Of a stretch of 64,000 nucleotides of DNA, positions 31,762 through 48,503 are shown piece by piece. Position 1 is the first letter of the stretch. Every line of letters begins with the position of its first letter. The position numbers and the translations under genes were made by a program. The DNA is taken from positions 10,348-74,347 of the forward strand of contig JBEEOT010000008.1 of assembly GCA_041191505.1 (NCBI GenBank). Reading direction: 5' to 3'. The notes under the pieces were generated by a model. That model did not search any database, was not told the DNA's origin, and saw only the letters and a list, made by a program, of their open reading frames with translations. The DNA is from Bacteroidota bacterium. Its GTDB lineage: Bacteria; Bacteroidota; Bacteroidia; Flavobacteriales_D; Crocinitomicaceae.

Positions 31762-31783
31762 GGCTAGAAATGATCTAAGGTTG

Positions 31784-33103: not shown

Positions 33104-33106
33104 GAC

Positions 33107-33970: not shown

Positions 33971-34017
33971 AGTTTGTTATAGAGTGAATGATAGCTTTGT
34001 GTCAATTTTACACTATC

Positions 34018-34025
34018 CAAATATA
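34018..34025 (-). promoter_or_regulatory. candidate -7 box (TAtaTTTG) for the maltose operon
   Basis: Plus strand CAAATATA, 47 nt upstream of the kinase ATG (33970) and 17 nt from the divergent regulator's GTG. Confidence 0.45.
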
Positions 34026-34042
34026 TAGATAATACTTCATAC

Positions 34043-34798: not shown

Positions 34799-34901
34799 TC
34801 CGCACTTTTTTATCCGGTAAAAAAATCGTAATTTTCTAAGGTAAAAGTTATTACCCTGTAACTTTTACGCCAAACAAATTGTTCTACTGCCAGACACAAT
34901 T

Positions 34902-35393
34902 TTGAACCGCTACGACTACAATACCTGTGTGGACCTCCACAGCGATGCGCTGTATAGGTTTTGTTTGCATTTCTTACGAGATGTCGAACTAGCCCGCGAT
35001 ATTGTACAAGATTGCTTTGAAAAATTGTGGATCAACAAGAAAGATGTTACGCTAGAGAAAGCTAAATCTTGGTTGTTTACTTGCGCCAATCACCTTATGC
35101 TTAACCAAGTGAAGCGCAACAAAGTAAAACAACAGCATTTAGAATCGCTCTACTGGAACAACACGCCTAGCGCAGACTCCACCTTTGAAAACCAGCAACT
35201 CATCCAGCTGCTCGTCGAAGATTTGCCTCCTATGCAAAAAAGCATCTTGTTGCTCCGAGACCTCGAAGGCTACACTTATCAAGAAATCGGTTCAATGCTC
35301 TCCTTGACCGAAGCCCAAGTAAAAGTGTACCTATTTAGAGCGAGGCTCAAAGTTAAGAAACGTGCTAAAGGACAATTTGTATTGGCTTCATGA
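34902..35393 (+). CDS. ECF-type RNA polymerase sigma-70 factor
   Basis: Region 2 is ARDIVQDCFEKLW. Region 4 HTH is LPPMQKSILLLRDLEGYTYQEIGSMLSLTEAQVKVYLFRARLKVKK. TTG start. Confidence 0.85.
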   Translation: MNRYDYNTCVDLHSDALYRFCLHFLRDVELARDIVQDCFEKLWINKKDVTLEKAKSWLFTCANHLMLNQVKRNKVKQQHLESLYWNNTPSADSTFENQQLIQLLVEDLPPMQKSILLLRDLEGYTYQEIGSMLSLTEAQVKVYLFRARLKVKKRAKGQFVLAS

Positions 35394-37024
35394 AACCAAC
35401 CCTAGACAACATCGATCAATGGCTCTTTGATGCCCTCGAAGGCAATCTAAGCGCTGAGCAAGAACAAATGCTCGAGGAGTTTATTGCCCAAAATCCAGAA
35501 TTTGAAATCGAGCAAGATGCTTGGTTACACACCAGCTACTCAGCCGCTCCTATCACTTTCGAACCAAAATCAGCGCTGTATCGCAAACGTCAATTTTCTT
35601 ACAAACATTTTGCAGCTGCAGCGATCCTACTTCTCCTACTTGCTGTCAAAGCAATCTTCTTCAATCAGAGCTCTCCTTCACTTACCGTTGAGAAAGAATC
35701 GAATCCAACGCGCCGTGTATCAACTTCTATCCATCATACGTCAGCACCCCAACAATCCACCACGACAACATCATTACAATCGAAATCTACCAAATCTATT
35801 GCCACTCCAACAAGCAGCACAATTGCTCATCCTGCATTCATTTCTCCCGATTTCACCCGAATTAATTCATTCCATTCTTCGTCTGCCACTCCTCTTTCTA
35901 GCGCTGCTTTAGGAGCTTCTTTAAACCGCTCTATTTTGCCAAGTTCTATTGAGCAATCGAAGCTACAAACATTGCCAACAGAACAAATCACTGGCTACCG
36001 CACAGATTTAAACTTTGAATCTTTGGCTGGAATAGCATCCGAATTCAAGATCAATAGCAATCTGCGTTGGCCGGCCTTGCAGCGCCTGAGTCAGTTCGCA
36101 CAAAAAGAACTTGGCCTTAGCAACAACCAATCCTATGACCTTTTAGCACCTGGCAAAAGTAACATAGATGCCAATATCAGCAGCGTTGGCACCCTTTCGC
36201 AATTGCGTTTTCAAAGCACAAGCATGGCACGGAGCACTACAGAAAACGCTCAAACGGTGCTTGGCCAACAATTCAGTCTCGATGGTTACTCGCGCAGCAT
36301 GAGAGCCGGCATTGGCGTACAAGCCAATTACAAACAATATGCACAAGGTGCGATCAGTGATTACGAGCTCGGGCTTATTGCCGCACCCAAAATCATGATC
36401 AGTAGAAGGTTCATCTTGGAGCCAGCCGCGCGCTTGCGCATGGGTGCGCGCTACGCAACTACATCAAAACTACAACAACTCTCATTTATTGAATTCGAAA
36501 ACGCCGATTTAAGAACCGTTCAAATAGATACCGCCCAAGCGGTTGGGCGTCGTTTGTTCTACAAAGACCTCGATCTAAGTTTAGCGATCCAAACCCCCAT
36601 TCTCTTTGCGAGCGCTCAACTTGAAAACGCTTTCCAACATTTTGACTACGCAATGGGTAACGAACTCAATCCAAGCAACAGCCATGCGCCACAAGTGTTA
36701 ACCGTTTCATTAGGTACTCAATACGCGTCACGCAACGAAAAAATGCGCATTTCACCATACGTGCAATACCGCAGCAACCGACTACAAACCCAGTATCTAG
36801 CTGGCCTACAATTGAACATCAACAAATGGCAGTTCGGTCTTAACATTGCCAATAACAAGCAATACCAAGCTGCAATGGGCTATTTTGGCAAACACAGTGC
36901 CGTATTATTACAAAGTTGCCAACTTCAACTTCTAACACTCAACCAGCCGAGCTACTATCATCAAGTCACCTTCCGAATTTACTCTCAACCAAGCCGAAAA
37001 GCGAGACGCTATATAGACCTATAA
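35390..37024 (+). CDS. anti-sigma-like / single-TM / Ser-Thr-rich linker / PorP-SprF-like beta-barrel fusion protein
   Basis: ATGA overlap with the sigma gene. The N-terminus is LFDALEGNLSAEQEQMLEEFIAQNPEF. TM helix at aa 74-91. S/T/P-rich region at aa 94-200. By-eye alignment of aa ~240-544 to the neighbouring PorP/SprF gives AGIGVQANYKQYAQGAI vs GGVGLVALHDQQGQGTI, ISPYVQY vs LSPNIIY, and YHQVTFRI..RKARRY vs SHEVSLGI..KPARDFRR. Confidence 0.55.
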   Translation: MKPTLDNIDQWLFDALEGNLSAEQEQMLEEFIAQNPEFEIEQDAWLHTSYSAAPITFEPKSALYRKRQFSYKHFAAAAILLLLLAVKAIFFNQSSPSLTVEKESNPTRRVSTSIHHTSAPQQSTTTTSLQSKSTKSIATPTSSTIAHPAFISPDFTRINSFHSSSATPLSSAALGASLNRSILPSSIEQSKLQTLPTEQITGYRTDLNFESLAGIASEFKINSNLRWPALQRLSQFAQKELGLSNNQSYDLLAPGKSNIDANISSVGTLSQLRFQSTSMARSTTENAQTVLGQQFSLDGYSRSMRAGIGVQANYKQYAQGAISDYELGLIAAPKIMISRRFILEPAARLRMGARYATTSKLQQLSFIEFENADLRTVQIDTAQAVGRRLFYKDLDLSLAIQTPILFASAQLENAFQHFDYAMGNELNPSNSHAPQVLTVSLGTQYASRNEKMRISPYVQYRSNRLQTQYLAGLQLNINKWQFGLNIANNKQYQAAMGYFGKHSAVLLQSCQLQLLTLNQPSYYHQVTFRIYSQPSRKARRYIDL

Positions 37025-37026
37025 CT

Positions 37027-37989
37027 ATGAAAAATTTAACCTTAACCTTTTTGTTTATTTTGGCCGCTGGTCAGTTACTTGCTCAGGACCCTACATTTAC
37101 TCAGTTTTATTCCAATCCTGTGTATTTGAATCCTGCGTTGGCCGGATCGAGCGGTTGCCCACGTGTAGCACTCAATTACCGCAATGAGTGGCCACAATTA
37201 ACGGGCAATTACGTTACTTATGCCGCTTCTTACGACAGCTACTTTAAAAACATCTCAGGAGGCGTTGGCTTGGTAGCCTTGCATGACCAACAAGGGCAAG
37301 GAACAATCCAAACTTCTATGATTGGCGCGAGCTACTCCAATTACCTCAAAGTCAATCGCAAGTTTCGTCTAATGTTTGGCGCGCAAGCTGCCTATTACCA
37401 GAAATACCTCGACTGGAGTCAACTCACTTTCGGCGACATGATAGATCCGCGCCGAGGATTTATCTATCAAACAGGCGATGTACCAAGAGGTGACGGCCAT
37501 AGAGGATTTTTTGACGTATCGGCTGGCATCGTAGGTTTTAGCAAGAATTTTTATTTCGGCGCGGCTTTCCACCACCTGAACAGACCTGATGAATCCATGA
37601 TACTTGGTCAGTCCAGACTTCCTGTAAAGATCACAGGCCACCTCGGGGCGAACATCAAACTCGGGCAGCGCGGCCGTTATTCAAGCTCCACCTTCTTGTC
37701 ACCGAATATCATCTACCAATACCAGAATGGCTTTCAGCAATTAAATGTAGGTGCTTACCTCAAATACGAGAGTTTCACCATTGGTGCCTGGTATCGCAAT
37801 AAAGATGCTTTTATATTAACGCTTGGCATCAACACTGACAAATACCGCATTGGTTACAGCTATGACCTCACGGTCTCACCATTAGGCAATGGCATCAGTG
37901 GCGGTTCACATGAAGTTTCGCTTGGCATCAATCTAAAATGTAAAAAACCAGCCCGAGATTTCAGACGCATAAGCTGTCCTTCTTTCTAG
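37027..37989 (+). CDS. type IX secretion system membrane protein, PorP/SprF family
   Basis: Signal peptide followed by the hallmark QDPTFTQFYSNPVYLNPALAG. The C-terminus ...GGSHEVSLGINL...ISCPSF is typical of the family. Start trimmed to 37027. Confidence 0.85.
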   Translation: MKNLTLTFLFILAAGQLLAQDPTFTQFYSNPVYLNPALAGSSGCPRVALNYRNEWPQLTGNYVTYAASYDSYFKNISGGVGLVALHDQQGQGTIQTSMIGASYSNYLKVNRKFRLMFGAQAAYYQKYLDWSQLTFGDMIDPRRGFIYQTGDVPRGDGHRGFFDVSAGIVGFSKNFYFGAAFHHLNRPDESMILGQSRLPVKITGHLGANIKLGQRGRYSSSTFLSPNIIYQYQNGFQQLNVGAYLKYESFTIGAWYRNKDAFILTLGINTDKYRIGYSYDLTVSPLGNGISGGSHEVSLGINLKCKKPARDFRRISCPSF

Positions 37990-38028
37990 GTCTTTGAACA
38001 GCTAGATTGCAATTCGTAATTTAGCCAA

Positions 38029-39753
38029 ATGAACAGATCAATCTTCATCTTTACTATCAGTTTGTTTGGTCAACTATTTGCCCAACAAAATTGGCTAGGC
38101 AACACCTCCCCTACCTACGACGAACTCATTGCGCATCTCAAAACAATAGATCGCGCGCACAAAGAGGTAAAATTGTACAACATGGGTGCCTCAGATTTTG
38201 GACAACCCATTTACCTCTGCGTGGTGAATGGACACAAAGATTCTCTCAAAACTTTTGAAAAAGCACGCAGTTCTACAACAATCTTGATCAATAACGCCAT
38301 ACATCCTGGCGAACCCGACGGCATCAATGCTTGTCTCATTTGGCTAGATCAATGGATTCGCGCAGGCAAACCCCTGAAGAGTCGAGACGGCGGTGATTTA
38401 CCAGTAATTGCCTTTATTCCAGCATATAATGTAGGTGGTATGTACAACCGTTCTGGAACGAGCCGCGCTAATCAAAATGGCCCTGAGGAATATGGCTTTC
38501 GAGGCTCTGCCAAAAATCTTGACCTTAACAGGGATTTTACCAAAATGGATGCCGTGAACACACATACTTTTGTACGCATCTTTCAAGCACTCGACCCAGA
38601 CATTTTCATAGATAACCACGTATCGAATGGCGCTGACTATCCTTATACCCTTACGTACATCAGCTCACTTAAAGAGCGACTTGCTCCGAGTATGCGCACC
38701 CTAACCTATGACAACTGTATACCTACCCTCAAAGAATATTGCCAAATAGGAAACTTTGAATTGTTCCCTTATGTCGAATTGAAAGAAGAAACACCTGATA
38801 ATGGGATCATTGCTTTCAATGACTTACCTCGCTATGCCATGGGTTATGCCAGCTTGTTTCATTCCCTTTCGTTTACCGTCGAAACCCATATGCTCAAACC
38901 ATTTGCTCAGCGCGTTCAGGCCACATTGCAATTCATGAATGCGACAATCGCTTTTGCTATGGAGCAAGATGCTGATCTTGAAAAAGCGCGAAGGGAAGCC
39001 AAAGAATGGGCTCAGGTTCAAACTCAATTTAAATTCAATTATCAATTAAATACCCAAAAAGTCGACAGTATCCGATTCAAGGGCTACGAAGCGACCTACC
39101 CTATTCACCCGATTACGGGTTTGGCTCAATTAGAGTACAACCGAGAAAAACCTTATGAAAAATACATCTCCTATTACAACGAATACTTCCCTCAGGACTC
39201 CATCGCCATCCCAAAATATTATGTGGTGGGAGCCCAGGAAGCAGCAGTTATCAAAAACCTACAGTTAAATGGTGTTCATTTTGAAACCGTTCAAGATTTT
39301 CACAAAGAAAAACTCACTTGTATGGTAGTAAAGAGTTACAAGGCTCCAACCCGACCCTACGAAGGTCATTTTAAACTATCCGAGATTGAACTTATGCGTA
39401 CAGAACAAGAAATCATGCTCAAACCGGGTGATATCATTATTCCGACACAACAAGAACGCGCATATTTTATTCATGCAGTTTTGCAACCAAAAGCCGAAGA
39501 CAGCTACTTTACTTGGAATTATTTTGATTCTTATCTACAACAAAAAGAGTATTTCTCTGCATATGTGTTCAAAGCGCAGATCGAAGACCTGCTCTCTAAA
39601 AATCCAGAACTCAAAAAATCCTATGAAGAAAAAAAAGCACTCGATATCAAATTTGCTCAAAGCGAATGGGATCAGCTTTTTTATATCTATCAAAGAAGTC
39701 CTTATTTTGAACCAACCTTTATGCGTTTGCCCGTTTACGAATTGAACGACTAA
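38029..39753 (+). CDS. M14 family zinc carboxypeptidase
   Basis: Signal peptide. Zn-ligand HxxE in NNAIHPGEPDG. Second motifs GFRGSAKNLDLNRDF and FIDNHVSNG. Confidence 0.85.
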   Translation: MNRSIFIFTISLFGQLFAQQNWLGNTSPTYDELIAHLKTIDRAHKEVKLYNMGASDFGQPIYLCVVNGHKDSLKTFEKARSSTTILINNAIHPGEPDGINACLIWLDQWIRAGKPLKSRDGGDLPVIAFIPAYNVGGMYNRSGTSRANQNGPEEYGFRGSAKNLDLNRDFTKMDAVNTHTFVRIFQALDPDIFIDNHVSNGADYPYTLTYISSLKERLAPSMRTLTYDNCIPTLKEYCQIGNFELFPYVELKEETPDNGIIAFNDLPRYAMGYASLFHSLSFTVETHMLKPFAQRVQATLQFMNATIAFAMEQDADLEKARREAKEWAQVQTQFKFNYQLNTQKVDSIRFKGYEATYPIHPITGLAQLEYNREKPYEKYISYYNEYFPQDSIAIPKYYVVGAQEAAVIKNLQLNGVHFETVQDFHKEKLTCMVVKSYKAPTRPYEGHFKLSEIELMRTEQEIMLKPGDIIIPTQQERAYFIHAVLQPKAEDSYFTWNYFDSYLQQKEYFSAYVFKAQIEDLLSKNPELKKSYEEKKALDIKFAQSEWDQLFYIYQRSPYFEPTFMRLPVYELND

Positions 39754-41510
39754 CGCACGATTAATTTGCCCGCATGTCTCAAGCCCTCTATTTGCCACAA
39801 ATAAAGTCCGCTTGGAAAGGAACTCAAGGAAATCGTAAATGTCTTTGAATTGATATTTTCAATTCGCATTACTTTTCCGTCAATGGAATAGATATTCATT
39901 TTACCAAAGACAGGTTTGGAAAAAGAAAAGGTGACTAAATCTTGTGTCGGATTTGGGTAAACAAATGACGTGAATACATTTTCAATTGATCCGGCATCGG
40001 TATTTCCACAAGAACTTGAAAAATAACTTTGCGTCTCATACCTACTCTGTGCCGGAATTGGATATGAAATTACCGGTTGCTCCCCAATTTTCAACCACAT
40101 GGATTGTGGTACAAAATCAGGGCAAAATGCATAGGCAAATGAAGTATCTGTTTGAAGTGAGGTACCTGCCGGAACAATTGTACCCTTGTTATTATTGGCA
40201 AATTCAAAATGACCTGTACCCTGCAAGCTGTAATTAACCAAACTATAAGGGAAAGCCGTATTGGTTACTTCATTGCCAATAAAAAGTTGATTTGGAGAAC
40301 TTTGGTCGCTAAAAAAAATACCATACAAAAAAGCTCGATTGCGATAAAATAGATTATCAGGTCCATTTGCGCCGTGAGAGTTATCGATCACGATATTATT
40401 GACGACATTTTGCTCCAACAAATTGGCATAAACATAATTGCCATGAAGTACTAAATCACCTGCGCTATTTGTGCCCAACAAAGGACTTGAATTTATCCAA
40501 TACGCATCTGTACTAAAATTGAAAGCAGCAACATTACCATTTGCCCCGGACTGAAGCAAGATGGCGTGGCGCAAGTGCTTAAAAATATTGTCTTCAATAC
40601 GACAATCACCAGTACTAGACTGCAGCACAACACCATAGGCGCGGCCTCCTCCACCATAATCAAAAGCCTCAGTGAGGTAATTTTTATGGACCAAAATCTG
40701 GGCGCAACTATTTAAAGCGATATGCGCAAAAGTGCAGTATCTAGAAAAGAGCCCGCTGATTTGCGAATTAACGACAAAATTAAATTCTATAGAACTACTT
40801 TGCTCTGGTGCTGTATCATCGATTCGCTCAATTGAAAAACACCTCAATTGAATATGCTCCTTCGGAATAATTCTCTGAACTGTACAAGGCAATTCATTGA
40901 CATAGGATCTACGGATCTTAGCAGTCAAAAAAAGTGTGTCGCCAGCCACCGCCTCAACCTGAAGCAGCTGCCCTACCGTACCAAGCGCCCATGAAGAAGT
41001 CACAAGTGAGGCATCTTGACACCTCAAATAAAGCCAATCTTTGGGCTGAAAATCATGAGCTGGGCATATTAGAAAGTGGTCGTTTTCAAGTGGTGGCAAC
41101 ACAACAGCTGGCTGATTGGTGGAGAGCGAGCCGCTGGCTTGAATCGCACTTTGTGATCCGCCTAAGTTGAATTGAAAATGAGTGAGATCAGGCCCTTCCC
41201 CTTCTATGATGAGTAGCGACTTCAATTGTAGGGTCTGTGTGAACAAAAATGTACCTTCCGGAAAGTGAATTCTTACCGTATCGTTTGAATATTGTTGTAA
41301 CAAGGCATTGATCGGAGCTGAACAATCTTGTTGGCCAGTCGGATCTAAATTGAGTGCTGCGAGGTCGAGAACTTGATAACATGAATCCGGAAGCACAGAG
41401 GAATTTACGCTTTGCCAATCTGAAAAACGATCGTAGGGAAAAGTTGTTTGGGCCTGAACGGTTTTCAGACCAAGGCATGCAAAAAGAAGTAGTAAGCAAC
41501 GCATATTCAA
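39750..41510 (-). CDS. T9SS-secreted right-handed parallel beta-helix protein
   Basis: Signal peptide MNMRCLLLLFACLGLKTVQAQ. Beta-helix-like repeats (NIFKHLRHAILLQSGANGNVAAFNF, LEQNVVNNIVIDNSHGANG). The CTD is VYPNPTQDLVTFSF...GLYLWQIEG. Confidence 0.75.
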   Translation of the reverse strand: MNMRCLLLLFACLGLKTVQAQTTFPYDRFSDWQSVNSSVLPDSCYQVLDLAALNLDPTGQQDCSAPINALLQQYSNDTVRIHFPEGTFLFTQTLQLKSLLIIEGEGPDLTHFQFNLGGSQSAIQASGSLSTNQPAVVLPPLENDHFLICPAHDFQPKDWLYLRCQDASLVTSSWALGTVGQLLQVEAVAGDTLFLTAKIRRSYVNELPCTVQRIIPKEHIQLRCFSIERIDDTAPEQSSSIEFNFVVNSQISGLFSRYCTFAHIALNSCAQILVHKNYLTEAFDYGGGGRAYGVVLQSSTGDCRIEDNIFKHLRHAILLQSGANGNVAAFNFSTDAYWINSSPLLGTNSAGDLVLHGNYVYANLLEQNVVNNIVIDNSHGANGPDNLFYRNRAFLYGIFFSDQSSPNQLFIGNEVTNTAFPYSLVNYSLQGTGHFEFANNNKGTIVPAGTSLQTDTSFAYAFCPDFVPQSMWLKIGEQPVISYPIPAQSRYETQSYFSSSCGNTDAGSIENVFTSFVYPNPTQDLVTFSFSKPVFGKMNIYSIDGKVMRIENINSKTFTISLSSFPSGLYLWQIEGLRHAGKLIVR

Positions 41511-41567: not shown

Positions 41568-44500
41568 TTAGTTTTTCACTATTCGAATCGCTTCGGCTGC
41601 TTCGGCTACTTTTAAGAAGTAGATCCCTCTTGCAACTTGGTCAATATCGATTGTAGTTGATGTACCTGTAAGCGTACCAGTGCTTACTACTTTTCCTTGT
41701 GCATCTTGAATCACATAAGTGCTATATAATGCTTCAGATGCTTTCAAAGTAAAGATAGCGTCAGTAGGGTTTGGCTGTACTGAGAAGCTCACAAAGCCAT
41801 TCTCATCTAGACCAACCGTAAGCGTAAGGTTCAAAGTAATGGTAGAATCACAACCAGCAGCATTGAGCAACACTTGCGTGTAAGTACCCGACTGCGTGTA
41901 AATGATTTCATTCAATACATAGCTTTGAAGCGCTGTAACGTTGAGTGTTGTTGAGGTAGGCTGAGCAGCAGTCACAACTATTTGTTCAGAAGCAGTAGTA
42001 CATCCGTTTGCACTTGTTGTCAAACAGCTGTAGGTACCCGGTGCATTGACCGTAATTTCTGACGTTGCAGGACCGTTAGACCAGCTGTAGGTGTTACCCG
42101 GCTGTGCTGAAATGGTAAGCGATTCACCAGGACACAAGCTCGCGTTACCATCTAGAATCAAGTCTGCTGACGGAGCTTCATTGACTGTAACAACTACTTC
42201 AGCTAAGTCAGGACATCCATTGGCTCCATAACCGGTAACAACATATGTACCCGGACTCATAATGGTTTGCGTCACTGAAGTACTGTTGTTTGCCCAAACA
42301 TAAGTGTTGGCACCACCAGCTGTTAAGGTAACTGAGCCACCTTCACAGAAAGTAAGTGGGCCAGATGCAGAGATGGTTGTTGTTGGCACTGGAAGAACCG
42401 TTACGTTGATCGGCGCTGATGTTCCAGTACAACCTTGTGTATTCGTAACCGTGACGGTTACCGGACCGTTTAAGCCTACGTTCACACCTTGAGTAGTTTG
42501 ACCATTAGACCAAACATAAGATGCTCCTGGTGAAGCCACGAGTGTAGCATAAGCACCAGCACAAACTGTGGTTGGTGAAACAGCTGTAATACTTGGGGTA
42601 AATGAAGTTTGAGCGTTCACTAAAATTTCATTCGAAACGGTACTACAACCAGCAGCATTTGTCACTGTTACAAAGTAAATTCCAGAGGTAGTTGCAGTAA
42701 TGCTAGGTGTAGTAGCACCATTGCTCCATACATACGAAGTACCGTTTGTATTTGAATTTAAGGTAACACTCTGACCTTGACAGAACGAAGTTGAACCTGC
42801 GGCAGAAATAGCCACTGTCGGATTCGAGCTCACAGCAATTGCTAATGGAGCAGACGAAGCAGTACAACCGTTTGCATCTGTCACAGTTACTGAGTAGTTT
42901 CCTGCAGTTGAGACATTGATACTTGAGTTGGTTGAACCGTTACTCCACAAATATGAAGCAGCAGTGCTAGACGAAAGTGTTGCTGCCGTTCCTTGACAAA
43001 TTGCAACGTTATTCGTTGTCACAATCGGGTTGCTCACTGAGTAAAGAGAGACAAGCACTGGTGCTGAAGTTGCAGAACATCCCTGGTGGGTAGTTTGTAC
43101 CGTTACAGGACCACCCGTTGTAACAGCAATACTTTGAGATGTCTCTCCGGTACTCCATACATAGGCGTCCGCATTTTCGGCCGTAAGCACTACACTTGCC
43201 CCAGGACAGAAAGTCGTTGGGCCATTTGTAAATACTTGAGGTGTTGGAACTGCTTGTACAAGAACTTGTTTTGTAACAGTCGTTGAACAAGCACCACTGT
43301 TGGTTACTGTATAGTTAATTGTAGCTGTCCCTCCCTGTAATCCTGAGATTTGACCATTGGCATCAACACTCGCCACATTGGCATTTGAACTCGACCAAAC
43401 ACCACCCGTGGTTGCATTTGTATATTGTTGAGTTGCTCCAACACAAACACTATTTGAACCAGCAATAGCAGATACAATTGGCATTGGCGCTGCCGTTACA
43501 ATAGTAGCGGCACTCGTAGTTGAACAACCATTTGCAGCGGTAAGTGTGTAAGTATAAGAACCTGATGTTGAGACAGAAATACTTGAAGCAGTTTGACCGT
43601 TATTCCAAATGTATGATCCTGCGCCATTTGCTGACAAAATAACAGAGCCTCCATCACAGAATGAAGTTGGGCCGTTAGCAGTAATGGTTGCAGCCGGAAC
43701 CGGTAAAACATTTACCACGATTGGTGCTCCTGTCGCAGAACAACCATTGTTGTCAGTACAAATAGGGAAATATGTACCTGATGTATTAACAGTGTTTGCA
43801 GCGGTAAAAGTTCCGTTATTCCATAAGTAAGATGATCCTCCTGTCGCAGTAAGCGTTACTGAAGATCCTGAACAGAATGTAGTTGGTCCGCTTAATGCAA
43901 CATTCACCACTGGTGGTTGATTAACCGTAAGTGCAAGTGGTGCAGATGGATTAGAAACACAACCAGCAGCACTTGTAATAGTCACTGCGTAACTACCACC
44001 CGCTGTTACAGAAATTGTTGGTGTAGTTGCACCTGTATTCCAAGCATAAGAGGCCGCAGCTGGTGCAGAAAGCGTTGTTGCAGAACCCTGACAAATTGAG
44101 TTGCCATTTGAAGATGTAATCGTTGCAACAGGAAGTGCTTCTACAGCAATGTTGGCGGTTGTTGTTGAAGTACAACCATTTGTTGCTGTTGTGGTGTAGG
44201 CAACAGTTGCTGTACCTGCACTCATACCAACGATGTCTCCGGTGCTACCATTTAAGCTCATGAGCGATGGCGTTGAACTAGACCAAGTACCATTTGGAAC
44301 CGGGTTAGAAACCGTTGCGTTGTTACCTACACACAAGATAGATGGCGCAACGATTGGCGCGTTAGCAGGAGATTGATTCACGTTGACAACAACCTGATCC
44401 GAACCAACACAACCATTCGTGCCAGTTGCGCTCACTATATATGTGGTAGTTGCTGTTGGTGTAGCTACAGGATTTAGAATACCCGCATTTGACAAACTTG

Positions 44501-47500
44501 CAGAAGGTGTCCAGACTGGTGTTATTGAAGGGCAACCAGATGCAGTACCATTCCATGTGCCACTCCAGTATGGGTAGTAGTTGGTAACTAAGTTAGCTCC
44601 TGCTCCATCTTGAATCGTAAAATAAGGCTCACTTGGCCAAGAAGCGGCAGTGAAAGTTACTTGAATTGGTGCGCCGTTAGAGGCAGTGAAAGTAAATGGC
44701 ACCGGACCAGCACCCCAACCGGTGATGCCAATATTTGTCAAGACTGGAACCCCTCCCACCAATACGGTAGCGGTACAACCATTCCAACCATCACCATAAG
44801 AATCGTAAAGAATAATGGTGTGGGTACAAGACGTATTGAAGTTAACCGTTGCGTTCATGTTCGCAGGCTGACCACTACAAATAGTTACGTCAGTACCAGC
44901 ATTCACAACCGGCGAAGGTAATACGGTTACCGTACGCGTTGCGGTTGAAGGCGGACACCAAGTTGTTGGGTTGGTGATGGTATAAGTCATGGTTGCCGTG
45001 CCAGCAGATACACCCGTAACTACTCCCGTATTCGGGTTGATCGTCGCAATGGCGTTGTTACTAGAAGACCAAGTACCACCTGTGCTTGTTGTCGAGAAAT
45101 TGACTGTAGCACCAGCACAAACCGATTGCGTACCCGCAAGTGGTGCAATTTGAGCAGTTGCTTGAACAGTAATGGTATTTGAAACAGGACCAGTAGATGT
45201 ACAACCCGATGCATTCAGGTAGTTCAAAGAAACGGTTTGGCTACCGCTAGTTAAATACTGAACGGTTGTTGTATTTGATGTAGTTGTTCCACCAGAGATG
45301 ATGTTGTAATTGACTCCAGCTGTACCTGGGAAGCCCCATGTGTATGCTTGCATACCTGCCTGTGTAGTATAGGTATAATCAGTAAATGTACATGCTTGGT
45401 TGCCAGGAGTTACCGTAAAGCTAGGTGTAAACGGAACGGCTGCAATAATTTGAACGTTGTAATCTTCTGTTTCACCATAGTAGTAGGTAGCACACGGATC
45501 AATTGATGCACCTGGTGTGTAGTAAACACCTCTTACACGCATGCGGTGCGTACCAAGTGGCGGCGTACAAGCCAAGTTGATATTGAAAGATACCGTTTGG
45601 AAAGCAGCGGTAGTATAAGCTGTAGAGAAACCTACTTTTTCTGAAGCTTCAAAGGTGTAGTTGTCATTGTAATCAATCCAAACCGCGAAAGCTTGATATG
45701 GGAAAGAACCACAAGATACTTGCACTTGATAGCTAGAGGCCGCAGACATAACAGCTGCTGGCAAGTTATTGTAATAAGTATAATAAGGACTTGATGTAGA
45801 TGTTCCTGAGTTATTACTCAAAGTTGTTCCTGTGATTGCTACATTCGAAATCAAGTCACCATATTGTGTGCCGTAAACGTAGGCTGGGTTACAATAAGGA
45901 TTGTATAGAATTTGAACAGGATTCGATGTAGCAGTGCTAGAAGAGTTCGTACAAGTCACAACACATTGATACCATGTTGTGGCGGTTGGTGTAGCGACAT
46001 AATTGTATGAATTGGCGCCAGAAATGTTCGTCCAAGGCCCTGTTGCACTTGGTGCACTTTGCCATTGGTAAGTTACACCTGTACCAGATGTGTTGTTTTG
46101 TAATGACAACGAAGTAGTTTGACCCGCAAAAATAGACGTTGCACTTGCAAGGGTATTACCCGGTGTTGGTGTTCCAGCACATGGCGGTGGAAGTGTTACT
46201 GTAAAGCAGTAATCTTCTGTTTCACCGTAGTAGTAGAGGTTGTGTGCGTAATTGGTCGCAGTTGCACTTGATTCAGCGTTCACTACACGCATGCGAGTTG
46301 TACCGAGGGTTGCTCCAGCTGGCACCAAGAAAGAACCAGTAATAGTTTGGTTACCATAAGCACCCGTTGGCTGGTTGTAAACAAATTCACCAGCGTCTAG
46401 GAAATCGCCATCTTGGTTGAAGTCAACAAAAACCTGGAAAATGTTGGTATATGCACCACCACAAGAAGTCTGTGTCAAGCTGAAGTTAACGACATCACCT
46501 TGGTTCACAGAAGGGCCCGTTACAAAACCAGTGTAATTAGAATAACGTTGGTTGATGGATCCAGTACCTGGCGCTGTAGTGGCACAAGTTGAACTGTTGT
46601 TCATAGTACCAACCGTTACATTCGTGATTTCTTCATCGTAAGTAGTATTTGAATAGTTTGCAGGATATGACCCACATTCACACTGACCACCTGCTGGCGT
46701 AAAGGACACAACGTTTGAGTTATTGCTACTTGCAGAATATAAACAAGCTGTCACCATTCGGTAGTAGGTTGTTGCGGCTGTGGCTGTAGTGTAAGACAAT
46801 GAGCTAGCACCAGAAATATTTGTCCAAGGACCAGTTGCCGAAGGAGCACTTTGCCATTGGTAAGATATACCATTACCAATAGAAAGACCACTCGCAGTCA
46901 ATGTGATACTTTGATTCGGACAACCTGTAGAAGCAGTGATTGTCGAAGAACCTGCATTTGGTGTACCAGAACAGTTTGGTGCTGGAATTACAGTGATGCG
47001 GAAATCTTTGGTTTCACCATAAGTAAGCGTTGAACAAGCAGAACTTGAACTTAGCGTATAACCTGCATATTCAGTTCTAATGCGCATGGCAATTTCACCG
47101 TTAAATGCGTTATTTGGAACGGTAACTGCAACCGTTCCAGACCACATTAACCATGATGTATTGGAACCAAACGACACGTATTCAGTTGTTTCGAATACCG
47201 TGTTGTTATTCCAATCAAACCAAGCGCCAGCAGCATTATAGTAACCTGTATTTAAGGTCAGGTTGTAAGTAACACCCGCCATAACGGTTGTGGTCGTTGA
47301 AGCAGCCGGGTAAGAAGCATAGAAAGGAGATGCTAACGAACCACTTGCTGTATGTGACAGCGTATTGAAATTCACCGAATTGATCATGCCGTAGTAGCCT
47401 GATCCGGCACCATAATAGGAGGTAGAAATACATGGGCCCGTTACAATTTGAATTGGGTTTGAAGTACCTGCATTCACGCCACAAGTGACGACACAGCGGT

Positions 47501-48503
47501 ACCAAGTTGGTGCCGAGTATGTAAGCAAGTAAGTGGCTGCCGTTGCCCCCGAAATGTTTGTCCAAGGACCTGTAGAGGAAGTTCCAGACTGCCATTGGTA
47601 AGTTGCACCTGTTCCAGTTGCGTTTTGTAAAGACAAGGTGGTGGTTGCGCCTACTGGCACTGCTGCAAAAGTAGCGAGTGTGTTTCCTGGAGTTGGCGTT
47701 CCAGAACAGCCAGAGCACGGCCCTACTCCAACATAAGCAATAGAAGTTGTTCTACATGCTGAAACCGAGGAACAAGCAGAATTCCCACTCCAATGGCAAT
47801 AATAAGTACCTGCAACTGTTGAGGTCCAGGTAAGAGGCCCTACACCAGATGCAATCACCGGACCTGAAACAGATCCTTGTCTGACTGTAATAAAATCTGT
47901 TGCTACACTAGATGAAACACGATACGCAGTACCAGCTACAACCGAGCTTAAAGTGGAATATTCTCCACCATAACTACAAGTTGAAAAATTCACTGAGCCG
48001 GCTGTTGGTGCTGTTGCAGAACCATAAGCAGAAGTATTTGAACATTGGAGACCGTTCGTTGCGCCACAAGATGCACAACTTATTGTAGTAGTTGTACAGC
48101 CTGATGCGGTTCCACAAGCACTGTTTGTATTCCAGTGTGCGTAATAGGTACCTGCACATGGAGCCGTAAACTGTAGCGGTGAAAAGCCAGCTGCTACAAC
48201 CGTTCCATTTGAAGTTCCAAAACGAATGGTAATAAATGAACCAGCGGCGCTATTCGTTACAACATATCTGTTGCCCGCAACAACACTCGAAATCGTGGAG
48301 TATTCAGACAAATAGGAACATGTAGAAATGGTTGTAACGGCGGTTCCTGTCGGAGCAACAGCGGAGCCATAAGCACTGGTGTTGGTACATTGTGAAAAAG
48401 TTGTACCATACGATGCGGATAGAAACATCGCAAATAGGAGAAAGAACTGAAACAACGTTCTTTTTTTTGCCGTTTTTAGCGGCGAGGATAGCAGTTTATA
48501 CAT
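41568..48503 (-). CDS. giant (2311 aa) modular T9SS-secreted surface protein / adhesin
   Basis: Signal peptide, then in order: 2x Cys-rich module, 3x (Ig-like + GEVED-type YGETEDY module), a PKD-like module, 3x Big_2-like modules, 9x 72-aa Ig-like repeats, and a type-A-like CTD (VQPNPTDAIFTL...GIYFLKV). Confidence 0.9.
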   Translation of the reverse strand: MYKLLSSPLKTAKKRTLFQFFLLFAMFLSASYGTTFSQCTNTSAYGSAVAPTGTAVTTISTCSYLSEYSTISSVVAGNRYVVTNSAAGSFITIRFGTSNGTVVAAGFSPLQFTAPCAGTYYAHWNTNSACGTASGCTTTTISCASCGATNGLQCSNTSAYGSATAPTAGSVNFSTCSYGGEYSTLSSVVAGTAYRVSSSVATDFITVRQGSVSGPVIASGVGPLTWTSTVAGTYYCHWSGNSACSSVSACRTTSIAYVGVGPCSGCSGTPTPGNTLATFAAVPVGATTTLSLQNATGTGATYQWQSGTSSTGPWTNISGATAATYLLTYSAPTWYRCVVTCGVNAGTSNPIQIVTGPCISTSYYGAGSGYYGMINSVNFNTLSHTASGSLASPFYASYPAASTTTTVMAGVTYNLTLNTGYYNAAGAWFDWNNNTVFETTEYVSFGSNTSWLMWSGTVAVTVPNNAFNGEIAMRIRTEYAGYTLSSSSACSTLTYGETKDFRITVIPAPNCSGTPNAGSSTITASTGCPNQSITLTASGLSIGNGISYQWQSAPSATGPWTNISGASSLSYTTATAATTYYRMVTACLYSASSNNSNVVSFTPAGGQCECGSYPANYSNTTYDEEITNVTVGTMNNSSTCATTAPGTGSINQRYSNYTGFVTGPSVNQGDVVNFSLTQTSCGGAYTNIFQVFVDFNQDGDFLDAGEFVYNQPTGAYGNQTITGSFLVPAGATLGTTRMRVVNAESSATATNYAHNLYYYGETEDYCFTVTLPPPCAGTPTPGNTLASATSIFAGQTTSLSLQNNTSGTGVTYQWQSAPSATGPWTNISGANSYNYVATPTATTWYQCVVTCTNSSSTATSNPVQILYNPYCNPAYVYGTQYGDLISNVAITGTTLSNNSGTSTSSPYYTYYNNLPAAVMSAASSYQVQVSCGSFPYQAFAVWIDYNDNYTFEASEKVGFSTAYTTAAFQTVSFNINLACTPPLGTHRMRVRGVYYTPGASIDPCATYYYGETEDYNVQIIAAVPFTPSFTVTPGNQACTFTDYTYTTQAGMQAYTWGFPGTAGVNYNIISGGTTTSNTTTVQYLTSGSQTVSLNYLNASGCTSTGPVSNTITVQATAQIAPLAGTQSVCAGATVNFSTTSTGGTWSSSNNAIATINPNTGVVTGVSAGTATMTYTITNPTTWCPPSTATRTVTVLPSPVVNAGTDVTICSGQPANMNATVNFNTSCTHTIILYDSYGDGWNGCTATVLVGGVPVLTNIGITGWGAGPVPFTFTASNGAPIQVTFTAASWPSEPYFTIQDGAGANLVTNYYPYWSGTWNGTASGCPSITPVWTPSASLSNAGILNPVATPTATTTYIVSATGTNGCVGSDQVVVNVNQSPANAPIVAPSILCVGNNATVSNPVPNGTWSSSTPSLMSLNGSTGDIVGMSAGTATVAYTTTATNGCTSTTTANIAVEALPVATITSSNGNSICQGSATTLSAPAAASYAWNTGATTPTISVTAGGSYAVTITSAAGCVSNPSAPLALTVNQPPVVNVALSGPTTFCSGSSVTLTATGGSSYLWNNGTFTAANTVNTSGTYFPICTDNNGCSATGAPIVVNVLPVPAATITANGPTSFCDGGSVILSANGAGSYIWNNGQTASSISVSTSGSYTYTLTAANGCSTTSAATIVTAAPMPIVSAIAGSNSVCVGATQQYTNATTGGVWSSSNANVASVDANGQISGLQGGTATINYTVTNSGACSTTVTKQVLVQAVPTPQVFTNGPTTFCPGASVVLTAENADAYVWSTGETSQSIAVTTGGPVTVQTTHQGCSATSAPVLVSLYSVSNPIVTTNNVAICQGTAATLSSSTAASYLWSNGSTNSSINVSTAGNYSVTVTDANGCTASSAPLAIAVSSNPTVAISAAGSTSFCQGQSVTLNSNTNGTSYVWSNGATTPSITATTSGIYFVTVTNAAGCSTVSNEILVNAQTSFTPSITAVSPTTVCAGAYATLVASPGASYVWSNGQTTQGVNVGLNGPVTVTVTNTQGCTGTSAPINVTVLPVPTTTISASGPLTFCEGGSVTLTAGGANTYVWANNSTSVTQTIMSPGTYVVTGYGANGCPDLAEVVVTVNEAPSADLILDGNASLCPGESLTISAQPGNTYSWSNGPATSEITVNAPGTYSCLTTSANGCTTASEQIVVTAAQPTSTTLNVTALQSYVLNEIIYTQSGTYTQVLLNAAGCDSTITLNLTLTVGLDENGFVSFSVQPNPTDAIFTLKASEALYSTYVIQDAQGKVVSTGTLTGTSTTIDIDQVARGIYFLKVAEAAEAIRIVKN
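41958..43244 (-). repeat. six tandem 71-73-aa two-Cys Ig-like repeats (aa 1754-2182)
   Basis: Same consensus as 43479..44129, for example ICQGTAATLSSSTAASYLWSNGSTNSSINVSTAGNYSVTVTDANGC. Confidence 0.8.
43479..44129 (-). repeat. three tandem ~72-aa two-Cys Ig-like repeats (aa 1459-1675)
   Basis: The consensus is ..G.T.FC.G.SV.L.A.G..SY.W..G.T...I.V...G.Y.V.....GC. Confidence 0.8.
45432..47699 (-). repeat. three consecutive units of [Ig-like YQWQ..GPWTNISGA module + GEVED-type module]
   Basis: Ig-like modules at aa 269-357, 510-607 and 775-869 share TYQWQS(A/G)..(S/A)TGPWTNISGA...Y.CVVTC. Interleaved modules end in YGETKDF, YYGETEDY and YYGETEDY. The GPWTNISGA-coding stretch of about 50 nt recurs near 47541-47600, 46811-46865 and 46021-46075. 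Confidence 0.8.
47700..48389 (-). repeat. tandem duplication of a 115-aa Cys-rich module (aa 39-153 and 154-268)
   Basis: Copy 1 is CTNTSAYGSAVAPTG...STCSY..EYSTISSVVAG...AGTYYAHWNTNSAC. Copy 2 is CSNTSAYGSATAPTAG...STCSYGGEYSTLSSVVAG...AGTYYCHWSGNSAC. Confidence 0.8.

What the first reader, a model, noticed from the sequence alone, without database searches (positions are those of the whole stretch)
34902..39753. Four-gene co-directional unit: ECF sigma, the fusion protein, a canonical PorP/SprF and an M14 carboxypeptidase, facing T9SS cargo genes
Gene spacing is tight: a 4-nt overlap, then a 2-nt gap, then a 39-nt gap. This suggests one transcription unit.

In Flavobacterium johnsoniae, SprF-like proteins act as cargo-specific partners of large adhesins such as SprB. 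They are usually encoded next to that cargo, and those cargos carry type-B CTDs. Here the unit converges on two cargo genes (39750..41510 and the 2311-aa gene 41568..48503), and a third cargo lies at 49315..51051. All three CTDs look type-A-like (NP....L.. near the start, G.Y.L.. near the end), so the expected PorP/SprF-to-type-B pairing is not obvious.

Two PorP/SprF paralogues, one of them tethered to a sigma-control module, plus a secreted zinc carboxypeptidase, form a combination I cannot map to a described system. The unit could be a regulatory or quality-control module for surface-protein export.
Basis: partly seen in the sequence, partly recalled or inferred. Interest (0 to 1): 0.65.

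Follow-up and report, generated by a model that had tools for sequence, protein, structure and literature searches.

The report
Sigma/anti-sigma switch fused to PorP barrel
The conserved unit has three genes, not four: a stress-type sigma factor, a probable anti-sigma factor fused to an outer-membrane barrel of the type IX secretion PorP/SprF family, and a standard PorP; this looks like an undescribed link between the secretion machine and gene control, while the carboxypeptidase and the cargo genes are only neighbours.

Summary
Comparative data change the unit.

- **Conserved core.** ECF sigma, then the 544-aa fusion, then a canonical PorP/SprF. This triad is in all 56 related genome loci, in all 18 informative metagenome loci, and in the cultured Paracrocinitomix mangrovi and Crocinitomix algicola.
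- **Promoter.** Every locus with upstream sequence has an ECF-type promoter, TGTAACTWT-N9-YAAWTTGTTYTA, just before sigma. It occurs once in the 64-kb window (34857-34886).
- **M14 peptidase.** Co-directional only in close relatives, inverted in another clade, absent elsewhere.
- **Cargo genes.** They vary between loci and lack the promoter.
- **Fusion protein.** A three-helix N-terminal domain whose best PDB matches are the anti-sigma factors RsiW and MucA, though not significantly. Then a membrane helix, a 120-240-aa disordered Ser/Asn/Thr-rich linker, and a PorP-like beta-barrel.

Best reading: an autoregulated sigma/anti-sigma module whose sensor is a PorP-like outer-membrane barrel, controlling at least the partner PorP. 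The anti-sigma function and the mechanism are inferred. I found no description in the searchable literature; databases call these proteins plain PorP/SprF. Verdict: a new variant of a known kind.

The parts
34857..34886 (+). ECF-type promoter TGTAACTTTTACGCCAAACAAATTGTTCTA (TGTAAC -35-like element, TTGTTCTA -10-like element), ending 15 nt before the sigma start codon
   Evidence: The same motif sits at the same position in all 51 loci that have upstream sequence. It is also present in L057, L058, L059, L060, L180 and L182. It is the only site in the 64-kb window on either strand, by PWM and by relaxed regular expressions. That sigma itself recognises it is inferred.
34902..35393 (+). ECF (group 4) sigma-70 factor, 163 aa, TTG start
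   Evidence: Sigma70_r2 E 4.7e-11 and Sigma70_r4_2 E 9e-15. TIGR02937 72.4 bits against a cut-off of 42.9. The best specific model is NF058625 (sigma_PG0214/GFO_1088 family) at 118.3 bits, below its cut-off of 130.
35390..35527 (+). Fusion protein residues 1-46: cytoplasmic three-helix domain with the motif NIDxWLFDxxEGNLSxxQxxxLExFxxxxPE...DAW; putative anti-sigma domain
   Evidence: The start ATG overlaps the sigma stop (ATGA). AF2 pLDDT is 86-96 for this domain in the 95-residue model, with helices at 8-17, 22-34 and 38-46. The best PDB fold matches are RsiW (5wuq; E 0.25, probability 0.69) and the cytoplasmic domain of MucA; neither is significant. zf-HC2 matches 4 of 32 members (best E 0.016) and DUF4880 matches 1 of 32 (E 0.0069). 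The zinc ligands are absent.
35600..35662 (+). Fusion residues 71-91: single transmembrane helix, preceded by the basic stretch YRKRQFSYKH (N-terminus inside)
   Evidence: AF2 helix at 71-91. A hydrophobic window at about residue 70-80 is present in nearly all full-length family members listed and in all 288 members analysed.
35663..36100 (+). Fusion residues 92-237: disordered Ser/Thr/Asn-rich linker
   Evidence: pLDDT is 30-42. The sequence is not conserved, but the length is held: median 173 aa, 5th percentile 134 aa in 288 family members.
36101..37024 (+). Fusion residues 238-544 plus stop: PorP/SprF-like outer-membrane beta-barrel with a basic C-terminal tail, SRKARRYIDL
   Evidence: hhalign against gene 3: probability 90%, E 1.4e-6. 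PF11751 hits in distant family members. The AF2 barrel spans 271-531 at pLDDT 70-86. Foldseek matches FadL, OmpG and porins.
37027..37989 (+). Canonical PorP/SprF family protein, 320 aa, with signal peptide MKNLTLTFLFILAAGQLLAQ
   Evidence: PF11751 E 4e-58 and TIGR03519 233 bits. It always follows the fusion gene. Identity to the window copy is 71-93% in close loci and 54-57% in the most divergent modules, where the fusion has fallen to 30% or less.
38029..39753 (+). M14 zinc carboxypeptidase, 574 aa, with a signal peptide and no CTD. A lineage-specific neighbour that may be co-transcribed here; not part of the conserved module.
   Evidence: PF00246 35.4 bits. No terminator-like hairpin lies in the 39-nt gap. 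Its orientation and presence vary between relatives.

Best explanation
The real unit is a three-gene, self-regulated ECF sigma module of Crocinitomicaceae-type Flavobacteriales.

**Model**
- Sigma is transcribed from its own ECF-type promoter together with two downstream genes.
- Gene 2 is a single-pass membrane protein. Its N-terminal three-helix cytoplasmic domain holds sigma inactive, as an anti-sigma domain.
- Its membrane helix anchors it in the inner membrane.
- A disordered linker of 120-240 aa crosses the periplasm.
- Its C-terminal domain is a beta-barrel of the PorP/SprF family (described as 14-stranded), set in or delivered to the outer membrane.
- Gene 3 is a strongly conserved ordinary PorP/SprF.

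**Most likely working**
The PorP-like barrel acts as the sensor. Its engagement with the type IX secretion apparatus, with the partner PorP or with a cargo, or its failure to engage, leads to destruction or release of the anti-sigma part. Sigma is then freed and raises transcription of the operon, hence of PorP, and probably of other envelope genes elsewhere in the genome.

**Shown**
- Gene order, translational coupling, and a conserved promoter that is unique in the window.
- The domain architecture and remote PorP homology.
- The conserved linker length.

**Inferred**
- Sigma binding by the N-terminal domain.
- Recognition of the promoter by this sigma.
- The envelope-spanning topology, the signal and the proteolytic release.

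The M14 peptidase and the type-A cargo genes are neighbours in this lineage, not parts of the system.

The confidence of 0.55 is for the package 'three-gene sigma / anti-sigma::PorP-like / PorP module driven by its own ECF promoter'. The specific trans-envelope sensing mechanism alone I put at about 0.3.
For: **Synteny**
- The sigma-fusion-PorP order is kept in all 56 genome loci.
- It is kept in all 18 metagenome loci that have enough downstream DNA.
- It is kept in Paracrocinitomix mangrovi CP091819.1 and in an unnamed 6.9-Mb assembly, and in Crocinitomix algicola.
- It is kept in the most divergent member found.
- It persists where all flanking genes differ (L044, L047-L053, L056-L058, L060, L180-L182).

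**Coupling**
- ATGA overlap between sigma and the fusion; 2-nt gap between the fusion and PorP.

**Promoter**
- The motif is invariant upstream of sigma.
- It occurs once in the window.

**Architecture**
- AF2 models.
- The barrel matches FadL, OmpG and porins.
- The best PDB matches of the N-terminal domain are anti-sigma domains, with weak zf-HC2 and DUF4880 hits.

**Family size**
- 136 representatives at 50% identity score E <= 1e-30. Nearly all are full-length, 520-730 aa, with the same N-terminal motif, membrane helix and barrel.

**Linker**
- Length is conserved and sequence is not.

**Partner PorP**
- It is under much stronger constraint than the fusion barrel.

**Same 30-mer elsewhere in metagenomes**
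- 14-15 unique sites lie within 120 nt upstream of signal-peptide ORFs, against 0 in the control orientation.
- These ORFs include a PorP_SprF gene, two type-A CTD cargo genes, a DUF4139 protein and a Crocinitomicaceae lipoprotein.

**Precedent**
- PorP-like proteins are 14-stranded FadL-family outer-membrane barrels that bind T9SS parts and cargo (PMC9143113).
- ECF control of T9SS genes has been reported or inferred in P. gingivalis and F. psychrophilum (PMC9723704).
Against: - No significant sequence or fold match ties the N-terminal domain to a known anti-sigma family. The Foldseek E-value is 0.25 and the Pfam hits are below threshold. The HxxxCxxC zinc motif is absent.
- No experiment or complex prediction shows that it binds sigma.
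- I know of no documented polypeptide anchored in the inner membrane and folded as an outer-membrane barrel. The helix could be cleaved by signal peptidase, which would separate the two halves.
- The window fusion itself does not reach any Pfam or NCBIfam threshold.
- Non-sigma promoter hits cannot be assigned to organisms that carry this sigma, apart from one Crocinitomicaceae lipoprotein cluster.
- No second site lies within 8 kb on either side of any module, so the regulon beyond the operon is unknown.
- Whether gene 3 is the housekeeping PorP or a dedicated paralogue is unknown.
Confidence: 0.55

Rival explanations
1. Split-after-export variant. Genes and promoter are as above, but the hydrophobic helix is cleaved, by signal peptidase or by self-cleavage in the linker. 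The barrel then becomes an ordinary free outer-membrane PorP paralogue. The short membrane stub is quickly degraded, so sigma activity reports the rate of synthesis and export of the protein rather than an outer-membrane signal.
For: - The topological difficulty of a protein held in both membranes (my own reasoning).
- AVKA follows the helix core in the window protein.
- FecR-type anti-sigma factors are known to self-cleave in the periplasm (established knowledge, not tested here).
Against: - No conserved cleavage motif follows the helix or lies in the linker across the family.
- A minimum linker length of about 110-130 aa is conserved. This is hard to explain if the linker does not have to bridge a distance.
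- A 70-residue folded domain ahead of the helix is atypical of a cleavable signal peptide.
Confidence: 0.2
2. All four genes, including the M14 carboxypeptidase, form one functional operon that acts as a regulatory or quality-control module for the adjacent T9SS cargo proteins.
For: - In the window and its closest relatives (L001-L027) M14 is co-directional, 25-55 nt after PorP.
- There is no terminator-like hairpin between PorP and M14.
- M14 has a signal peptide and an intact HPGE motif.
- Cargo genes abut it.
Against: - M14 is inverted in L028-L046 and L059, displaced in L050/L051, and absent from L044, L047-L049, L057, L058, L060 and L182.
- Where M14 adjacency is kept, the upstream maltose-utilisation genes are kept too. 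That points to general synteny rather than functional linkage.
- Cargo1 and cargo2 are variably present. L002 has neither and L016 lacks cargo2.
- No sigma-type promoter precedes any cargo gene or M14.
- A fourth cargo gene lies 21 kb away, so such genes are frequent here.
Confidence: 0.1
3. The N-terminal extension is not an anti-sigma domain. Gene 2 is simply a long PorP/SprF paralogue with an unusual leader or a periplasmic extension, and sigma is controlled in some other way. The three genes are linked only because sigma drives expression of the two PorP genes.
For: - No significant match to any anti-sigma family.
- Public annotation calls these proteins plain PorP/SprF.
- Some ECF groups lack anti-sigma factors, for example SigP (PMC7826278).
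Against: - The gene occupies the classical anti-sigma position with a start/stop overlap in every locus.
- The N-terminal domain is the second best conserved part of the protein across the family.
- Basic residues ahead of the helix place the domain in the cytoplasm.
- The top fold matches in the whole PDB are RsiW and MucA.
- A conserved cytoplasmic folded domain on an outer-membrane protein has no other obvious role.
Confidence: 0.12
4. The two PorP/SprF proteins are cargo-specific adaptors of the SprF type for a large adhesin. Sigma only provides condition-specific expression, and the partner cargo has a type-B CTD and is encoded elsewhere.
For: - PorP-like proteins bind type-B CTD proteins: SprF with SprB, PorP with PG1035 (PMC9143113).
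- F. johnsoniae has 10 such paralogues (PMC9143113).
Against: - No type-B CTD gene sits next to the module in the window.
- None appears in the Pfam-annotated contexts of six other genomes.
- No porE-like gene is adjacent.
- This does not explain the cytoplasmic domain or the membrane helix.
Confidence: 0.08

Closest known systems
Cell-surface (trans-envelope) signalling: FecA-FecR-FecI in Proteobacteria, and SusC-like transducer / anti-sigma / ECF sigma in Bacteroides
   Same: An ECF sigma, a single-pass inner-membrane anti-sigma factor encoded immediately downstream, and an outer-membrane beta-barrel as the sensing element. The sigma gene is autoregulated.
   Different: - Here the barrel is of the PorP/SprF type (FadL-like, described as 14-stranded), not a 22-stranded TonB-dependent transducer.
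- It is fused to the anti-sigma factor rather than contacting it through an N-terminal signalling domain.
- No FecR domain (PF04773) or plug was detected. A TonB box was not looked for.
- A second, free barrel of the same family is always encoded next to it.
[quoted passage not shown]
   Same: Gene 3 is a full member (TIGR03519, PF11751). The fusion barrel is a remote homologue with the same fold class and the same type of basic C-terminal tail after the ...SH(E/Q)V(S/T)... last strand.
   Different: - Known PorP-like genes sit beside their type-B CTD cargo and often beside porE-like genes (PMC9143113). Here there is neither.
- The neighbours are type-A cargo or unrelated genes.
- I found no described PorP-like protein with a cytoplasmic domain and a membrane helix.
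PorXY-SigP (with PorA) control of T9SS genes in Porphyromonas gingivalis, and the SM6 ECF-type promoters of T9SS genes in Flavobacterium psychrophilum
   Same: An ECF sigma is linked to expression of T9SS components. porP is in the SigP regulon by my recollection of established knowledge. An ECF-type motif lies upstream of gldN and porU in F. psychrophilum (PMC9723704).
   Different: - SigP has no anti-sigma factor and is stabilised by a response regulator (PMC7826278).
- Here the control element is an anti-sigma-like domain fused to a T9SS-family barrel.
- The window sigma scores best with the PG0214-type model, not as SigP, and falls below that model's cut-off.
Class I anti-sigma factors (RsiW, RseA/MucA, ZAS proteins)
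   Same: A short helical cytoplasmic domain followed by one membrane helix, encoded directly after the sigma gene. RsiW and MucA are the best fold matches.
   Different: - Three helices rather than four.
- No HxxxCxxC motif.
- Matches are not significant.
- The extracytoplasmic part is an outer-membrane barrel.

Membership tests
ECF (group 4) sigma-70 factors | Regions 2 and 4 only, about 160-200 aa; passes TIGR02937 | tested here: met
   Sigma70_r2 42.8 bits (cut-off 24), Sigma70_r4_2 54.5 bits (cut-off 25.7). TIGR02937 72.4 bits (cut-off 42.9). Length 163 aa.
NF058625 sigma_PG0214 / GFO_1088 family ECF sigma (equivalog) | Score at or above the curated cut-off of 130 bits | tested here: not met
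   118.3 bits, E 2.8e-34. It is the best-scoring model but falls below its cut-off. The window sigma is a relative, not a member.
PorP/SprF family (TIGR03519 / PF11751): gene 3 | Passes the curated HMM cut-offs over the full length; has a signal peptide | tested here: met
   TIGR03519 233 bits (cut-off 90.55), profile positions 4-291 of 292. PF11751 197.5 bits. N-terminus MKNLTLTFLFILAAGQLLAQ.
PorP/SprF family: C-terminal domain of the fusion | Passes PF11751 or TIGR03519 | tested here: not met
   The window protein has no hit, even at E <= 10.
PorP/SprF family: C-terminal domain of the fusion | Homology shown by profile comparison and through intermediate sequences; beta-barrel fold | tested here: met
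   - hhalign: probability 90%, E 1.4e-6 over 233 columns.
- Barrel HMM against gene 3: E 3.5e-8, the only other hit in the window.
- 3 of 20 family members hit PF11751, best E 7e-14.
- All 120 listed members of the P0141 branch carry PF11751.
- AF2 barrel at pLDDT 70-86, matching FadL and OmpG.
PorP-like cargo adaptor (SprF-SprB type) | Encoded next to a type-B CTD (TIGR04131) cargo gene and/or a porE-like gene | tested here: not met
   All three adjacent cargo genes are TIGR04183 type A, with no type-B hit. The other contexts hold no CTD or OmpA/PorE-like neighbour directly next to the triad; the nearest CTD-bearing gene is about 2 kb upstream in L182.
Zinc-binding anti-sigma (ZAS, zf-HC2 PF13490) | HxxxCxxC zinc motif; passes PF13490 | tested here: not met
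   The motif is absent from the sequence...LEEFIAQNPEFEIE.... PF13490 hits are below threshold in only 4 of 32 N-terminal domains, best E 0.016.
Class I anti-sigma domain (general) | Helical cytoplasmic domain that binds the cognate sigma, followed by one membrane helix, encoded next to the sigma gene | tested here: inconclusive
   Gene position, overlap, topology and the three-helix fold fit. The top PDB fold hits are RsiW and MucA, but at E 0.25-8. Binding to sigma was not testable.
FecR-type cell-surface signalling anti-sigma | FecR periplasmic domain (PF04773) and a TonB-dependent transducer partner | tested here: not met
   No FecR hit; DUF4880 appears only below threshold (E about 0.007-0.12) in a few family members. 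There is no TonB-dependent receptor in the module.
Peptidase M14 (gene 4) | Passes PF00246; has the HxxE zinc motif | tested here: met
   35.4 bits (cut-off 21.6), residues 35-343. IHPGEPDG is in the sequence. No solved relative was found by sequence.
T9SS type-A CTD cargo (three neighbours) | C-terminal TIGR04183 / PF18962 domain above the cut-off | tested here: met
   TIGR04183 40.3, 29.2 and 31.8 bits against a cut-off of 23, at the extreme C-termini. PF18962 about 41 bits for each.

The most novel reading that the evidence does not exclude
One polypeptide runs from the cytoplasm to the outer membrane. It has an anti-sigma domain, an inner-membrane helix, a periplasm-spanning tether and a PorP-family barrel that sits in or beside the type IX secretion machine. 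The state of the secretion apparatus (free PorP sites, cargo load or barrel assembly) is then passed directly to an ECF sigma that sets PorP levels and an envelope and T9SS regulon. This would be a new class of cell-surface signalling and a new membrane-protein topology.
Probability: 0.3. Interest if true: 0.85.

Novelty: new variant of a known kind. Interest (0 to 1): 0.62.

Why it matters
How Bacteroidota match expression of type IX secretion components to the state of the machine is known only for PorXY-SigP in P. gingivalis. This module would be a second, differently built route, in a family of abundant freshwater and marine Flavobacteriales.

It would add a new sensor domain, an outer-membrane barrel of a secretion-system family, to the known types of ECF anti-sigma factor.

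It raises a question of membrane biogenesis: can one chain be anchored in the inner membrane and also assembled by BAM into the outer membrane?

It corrects current annotation, which labels these 520-730-aa proteins as plain PorP/SprF.

It can be tested directly, because two cultured species, Paracrocinitomix mangrovi and Crocinitomix algicola, carry the module.

Tried and rejected
- **Direct Pfam and NCBIfam scans of the fusion** found nothing, even at E <= 10. Homology had to be shown by profiles.
- **PDB sequence searches** with the family profile, the N-terminal profile and M14 found nothing useful. No PorP/SprF entry turned up in the sequence searches or among the 50 listed fold matches.
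- **PG0214 lead.** The sigma's best model is the PG0214 family. The P. gingivalis literature describes only a PG0214-PG0218 cluster of hypothetical proteins (PMC11018363), and the score is below the cut-off. I dropped the lead.
- **Literature searches.** 'PorP' with 'anti-sigma', 'SprF' with 'anti-sigma' or 'ECF sigma', and 'GFO_1088' found no description of the fusion. The hits were 'Porphyromonas' matching 'PorP'. No supplements of the ECF re-classification paper are held.
- **Sigma-70-type promoter scan** found no more sites than in shuffled sequence. It does not model Bacteroidota promoters, so I did not use it.
- **Second promoter sites near the module.** None within 8 kb on either side in 58 loci.
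- **Last homologue search**, with the most divergent member, returned only 2 proteins. It did allow the context look-up.
- **My sigma-recognition heuristic failed**, flagging none. The sigma and non-sigma counts come from the BLAST classification.
- **M14 as a T9SS cargo or lipoprotein** is rejected. It has no CTD hit and no cysteine in its signal peptide.

Full report
**1. Observation**

- Sigma: 34902-35393 (TTG start).
- Fusion: 35390-37024. Its ATG overlaps the sigma TGA as ATGA.
- PorP: 37027-37989, starting 2 nt after the fusion stop.
- M14: 38029-39753, after a 39-nt gap.

Domain searches confirm the assignments.
- Gene 1 is an ECF sigma.
- Gene 3 is a full-length PorP/SprF: TIGR03519 233 bits against a cut-off of 90.55.
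- Gene 4 is an M14 peptidase.
- The three neighbouring large genes carry type-A CTDs (TIGR04183 above its cut-off), with no type-B hit.

The M14 stop and the convergent cargo gene's stop overlap by 4 nt, at 39750-39753.

**2. The fusion protein**

The fusion protein matches no curated family on its own. Its C-terminal 300 residues are nevertheless homologous to gene 3.
- BLASTP: E 4e-5.
- Family profile against gene 3: 90% probability, E 1.4e-6 over 233 columns.
- A barrel HMM finds gene 3 as the only other hit among 134 ORF segments of the window, E 3.5e-8.
- More distant family members pass PF11751.

AlphaFold2 with a 20-sequence alignment gives the following layout.
- Three N-terminal helices.
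- A membrane helix at residues 71-91.
- A disordered stretch at residues 93-248.
- A barrel at residues 271-531, pLDDT 70-86. It matches FadL, OmpG and porins in the PDB. Gorasia et al. (PMC9143113) describe PorP-like proteins as 14-stranded FadL-family barrels, which fits.

Modelled alone, the first 95 residues reach pLDDT 85. The best PDB matches are RsiW in complex with SigW, followed by several MucA-AlgU entries. The E-values are 0.25 and worse, so this is a lead and not proof. Sub-threshold zf-HC2 and DUF4880 hits point the same way. The zinc ligands are absent.

**3. Family and distribution**

- The word-indexed search found 82 clusters, all from uncultured Bacteroidota.
- The exhaustive HMM search found 136 representatives at 50% identity with E <= 1e-30. 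Nearly all are 520-730 aa with the same plan: NIDxWLFDYxEGNLS...DAW, a hydrophobic helix near residue 75, a long polar linker and a PorP-like barrel.
- Where a taxon is named more precisely than Bacteroidota, it is Crocinitomicaceae. This includes the cultured Paracrocinitomix mangrovi and Crocinitomix algicola. The proteins are annotated simply as 'PorP/SprF family'.
- In 288 full-length members the linker has a median length of 173 aa and a 5th percentile of 134 aa. It is rich in Ser, Asn and Thr and its sequence is not conserved. A length kept without sequence conservation is what a spacer that must bridge the periplasm would show.

**4. Synteny**

- A scan of one genome per species found 56 loci, all labelled Crocinitomicaceae, Cryomorphaceae or Lishizhenia, or mislabelled bins.
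- Every locus with the relevant DNA has sigma-fusion-PorP in that order on one strand.
- The same holds in P. mangrovi and in a 6.9-Mb genome, in two further metagenome contigs, in C. algicola, and in the most divergent member.
- It also holds in all 18 informative metagenome loci (two of these fell just below my 60% identity filter).
- In several loci the flanking genes are entirely different. The triad is therefore held together by function and not by general synteny.
- The third gene is far better conserved than the fusion: 71-93% against 28-68% identity, and still 54-57% where the fusion is 30% or less.

M14 behaves differently.
- It is co-directional in L001-L027.
- It is on the opposite strand in L028-L046 and L059.
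- It is displaced in L050/L051.
- It is absent from L044, L047-L049, L057, L058, L060 and L182.

Where M14 is adjacent, the upstream NrtR and maltose-utilisation genes are also conserved, so its adjacency reflects local synteny.

The cargo genes vary even among close relatives. The window has a fourth type-A cargo gene at 12408-13922.

**5. Promoter**

- Aligning 160 nt upstream of sigma from 51 loci shows an invariant TGTAACTWT-N9-YAAWTTGTTYTA, which begins 44-50 nt before (and ends about 15-20 nt before) the start codon.
- It persists in the divergent modules as TGTAAC-N-TGTTT.
- The spacing and the TGTAAC -35 element are typical of ECF promoters (established knowledge).
- In the window it lies at 34857-34886. 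It is the only occurrence on either strand, by PWM and by relaxed patterns. M14 and the cargo genes do not have it.
- No terminator-like hairpin separates PorP from M14, so read-through into M14 is possible in this lineage.

An exact-pattern scan of metagenome contigs gave 120 sites.
- 56 are directly upstream of sigma homologues.
- Of the remaining unique sites, 14-15 lie within 120 nt upstream of ORFs with signal peptides, against none in the control orientation.
- Those ORFs include a stand-alone PorP_SprF gene (L081), two type-A CTD cargo genes in one contig (L131), a DUF4139/DUF4140 protein, outer-membrane-like barrels, and a small CarboxypepD_reg-like lipoprotein. The lipoprotein was found at four independent sites; the one looked up (L146) belongs to Crocinitomicaceae.
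- This suggests that sigmas of this specificity drive envelope and T9SS genes. Apart from that lipoprotein, I cannot show that those contigs come from organisms carrying this module.

**6. Mechanism**

The best-supported model is an autoregulated ECF sigma/anti-sigma pair. The extracytoplasmic part of the anti-sigma factor is a PorP-family outer-membrane barrel, and the pair is co-expressed with a conserved PorP.

I propose that the barrel reports on the T9SS or the outer membrane, and that sigma release raises PorP and other envelope genes. The signal could be interaction with the partner PorP, with PorK/GldK or the translocon, or with a cargo.

- Shown: the architecture, the coupling, the promoter and the conservation.
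- Inferred: sigma binding, promoter recognition by this sigma, the dual-membrane topology, the signal and the proteolysis.

The main variant is that the chain is cut after export, so that the two halves act separately. The conserved linker length argues against this but does not exclude it.

**7. Comparison with known systems**

- The logic resembles FecA-FecR-FecI and the Bacteroides SusC-like/anti-sigma/ECF systems. The barrel family, the fusion, and the absence of FecR and plug domains are different; a TonB box was not looked for.
- It resembles PorXY-SigP in linking an ECF sigma to the T9SS, but has a different control device.
- It departs from the SprF-SprB and PorP-PG1035-PorE pattern, because no type-B CTD gene or porE-like gene accompanies it.
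- The sigma is nearest to the PG0214-type model but below that model's cut-off.
- Full-text searches found no description of an anti-sigma/PorP fusion. The library does not cover most subscription journals.

**8. Verdict**

The unit is real and not described in the literature I could search, but it has three genes. The carboxypeptidase and the facing cargo genes are incidental.
- Novelty: a new variant of a known kind.
- Interest: 0.62.

Noticed in passing
window 37960-37989 (C-terminus of gene 3); L171:7793-9523: The canonical PorP ends ...ARDFRRISCPSF. An unrelated 576-aa DUF4140/DUF4139 (TIGR02231-family) protein from a metagenome contig ends ...RFRTVSCPSF and is preceded by the same ECF-type promoter motif. 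This shared C-terminal R-x-(I/V)-S-C-P-S-F tail could be a common outer-membrane or sorting signal.
   Followed up: partly
L131:5457-5486 and 7196-7225 (the same sites as L099 and L115): Two adjacent T9SS type-A CTD cargo genes (526 and 786 aa) in one metagenome contig. Each is preceded, 51-52 nt upstream, by the promoter 30-mer with nearly identical spacers. In some organism a sigma of this specificity therefore appears to drive cargo genes, unlike in the window.
   Followed up: partly
L120, L146, L168, L172 (metagenome contigs): A family of small lipoproteins, about 125-145 aa, with a weak CarboxypepD_reg-like match. It carries the promoter motif upstream at four independent sites with different spacers. 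One cluster is annotated Crocinitomicaceae and is seen on 281 contigs. It is a candidate regulon member.
   Followed up: partly
P0212, P0219, P0222, P0226, P0227, P0229: Proteins of about 520-610 aa begin with the same ...EGNLS... N-terminal motif (MNINRxNxEAWxLDxxEGNLS). They repeat it in tandem and have neither the membrane helix at about residue 75 nor the PorP barrel. The putative anti-sigma module therefore also occurs with other C-terminal parts.
   Followed up: no
window 39750-39753: The M14 gene (+) and the convergent type-A cargo gene (-) overlap by 4 nt at their stop codons, with no terminator-like hairpin between them.
   Followed up: no
window 27548-34798: Upstream of the module lies a maltose/starch-type block on the minus strand: GH65 phosphorylase, HAD hydrolase, MFS transporter, alpha-amylase and a BadF-type ATPase. 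Next to it is a divergently oriented Nudix/NrtR-like regulator (34043-34798). This block is syntenic with the module in most close relatives.
   Followed up: partly
window 41568-48503 (-): The 2311-aa cargo protein has three GEVED domains and Ig-like repeats. It also has a partial match (75 bits over three stretches) to the C-terminal region of a Leptospira thermolysin model (NF047971, best stretch residues 684-769), but no peptidase domain hit.
   Followed up: no
window 12408-13922 (-): A fourth T9SS type-A CTD protein (504 aa; PF18962 E 5.8e-7), with no other recognisable domain, 21 kb from the module.
   Followed up: no
L062, L070, L075, L079, L087, L088, L090, L106, L136, L163, L170: The exact 30-mer TGTAACTTTGCATTACATCAAATTGTTTTA recurs in 11 contigs, several from human gut metagenomes. 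None has an ORF within 200 nt downstream. It is probably an unrelated conserved element that happens to fit the pattern.
   Followed up: no
L172:3181-3210 and 7989-8444: One contig has the promoter motif before the small lipoprotein gene, and 4.8 kb away a 42%-identical ECF sigma with no fusion or PorP gene detected beside it. Related sigmas may share the promoter specificity without the PorP module.
   Followed up: no
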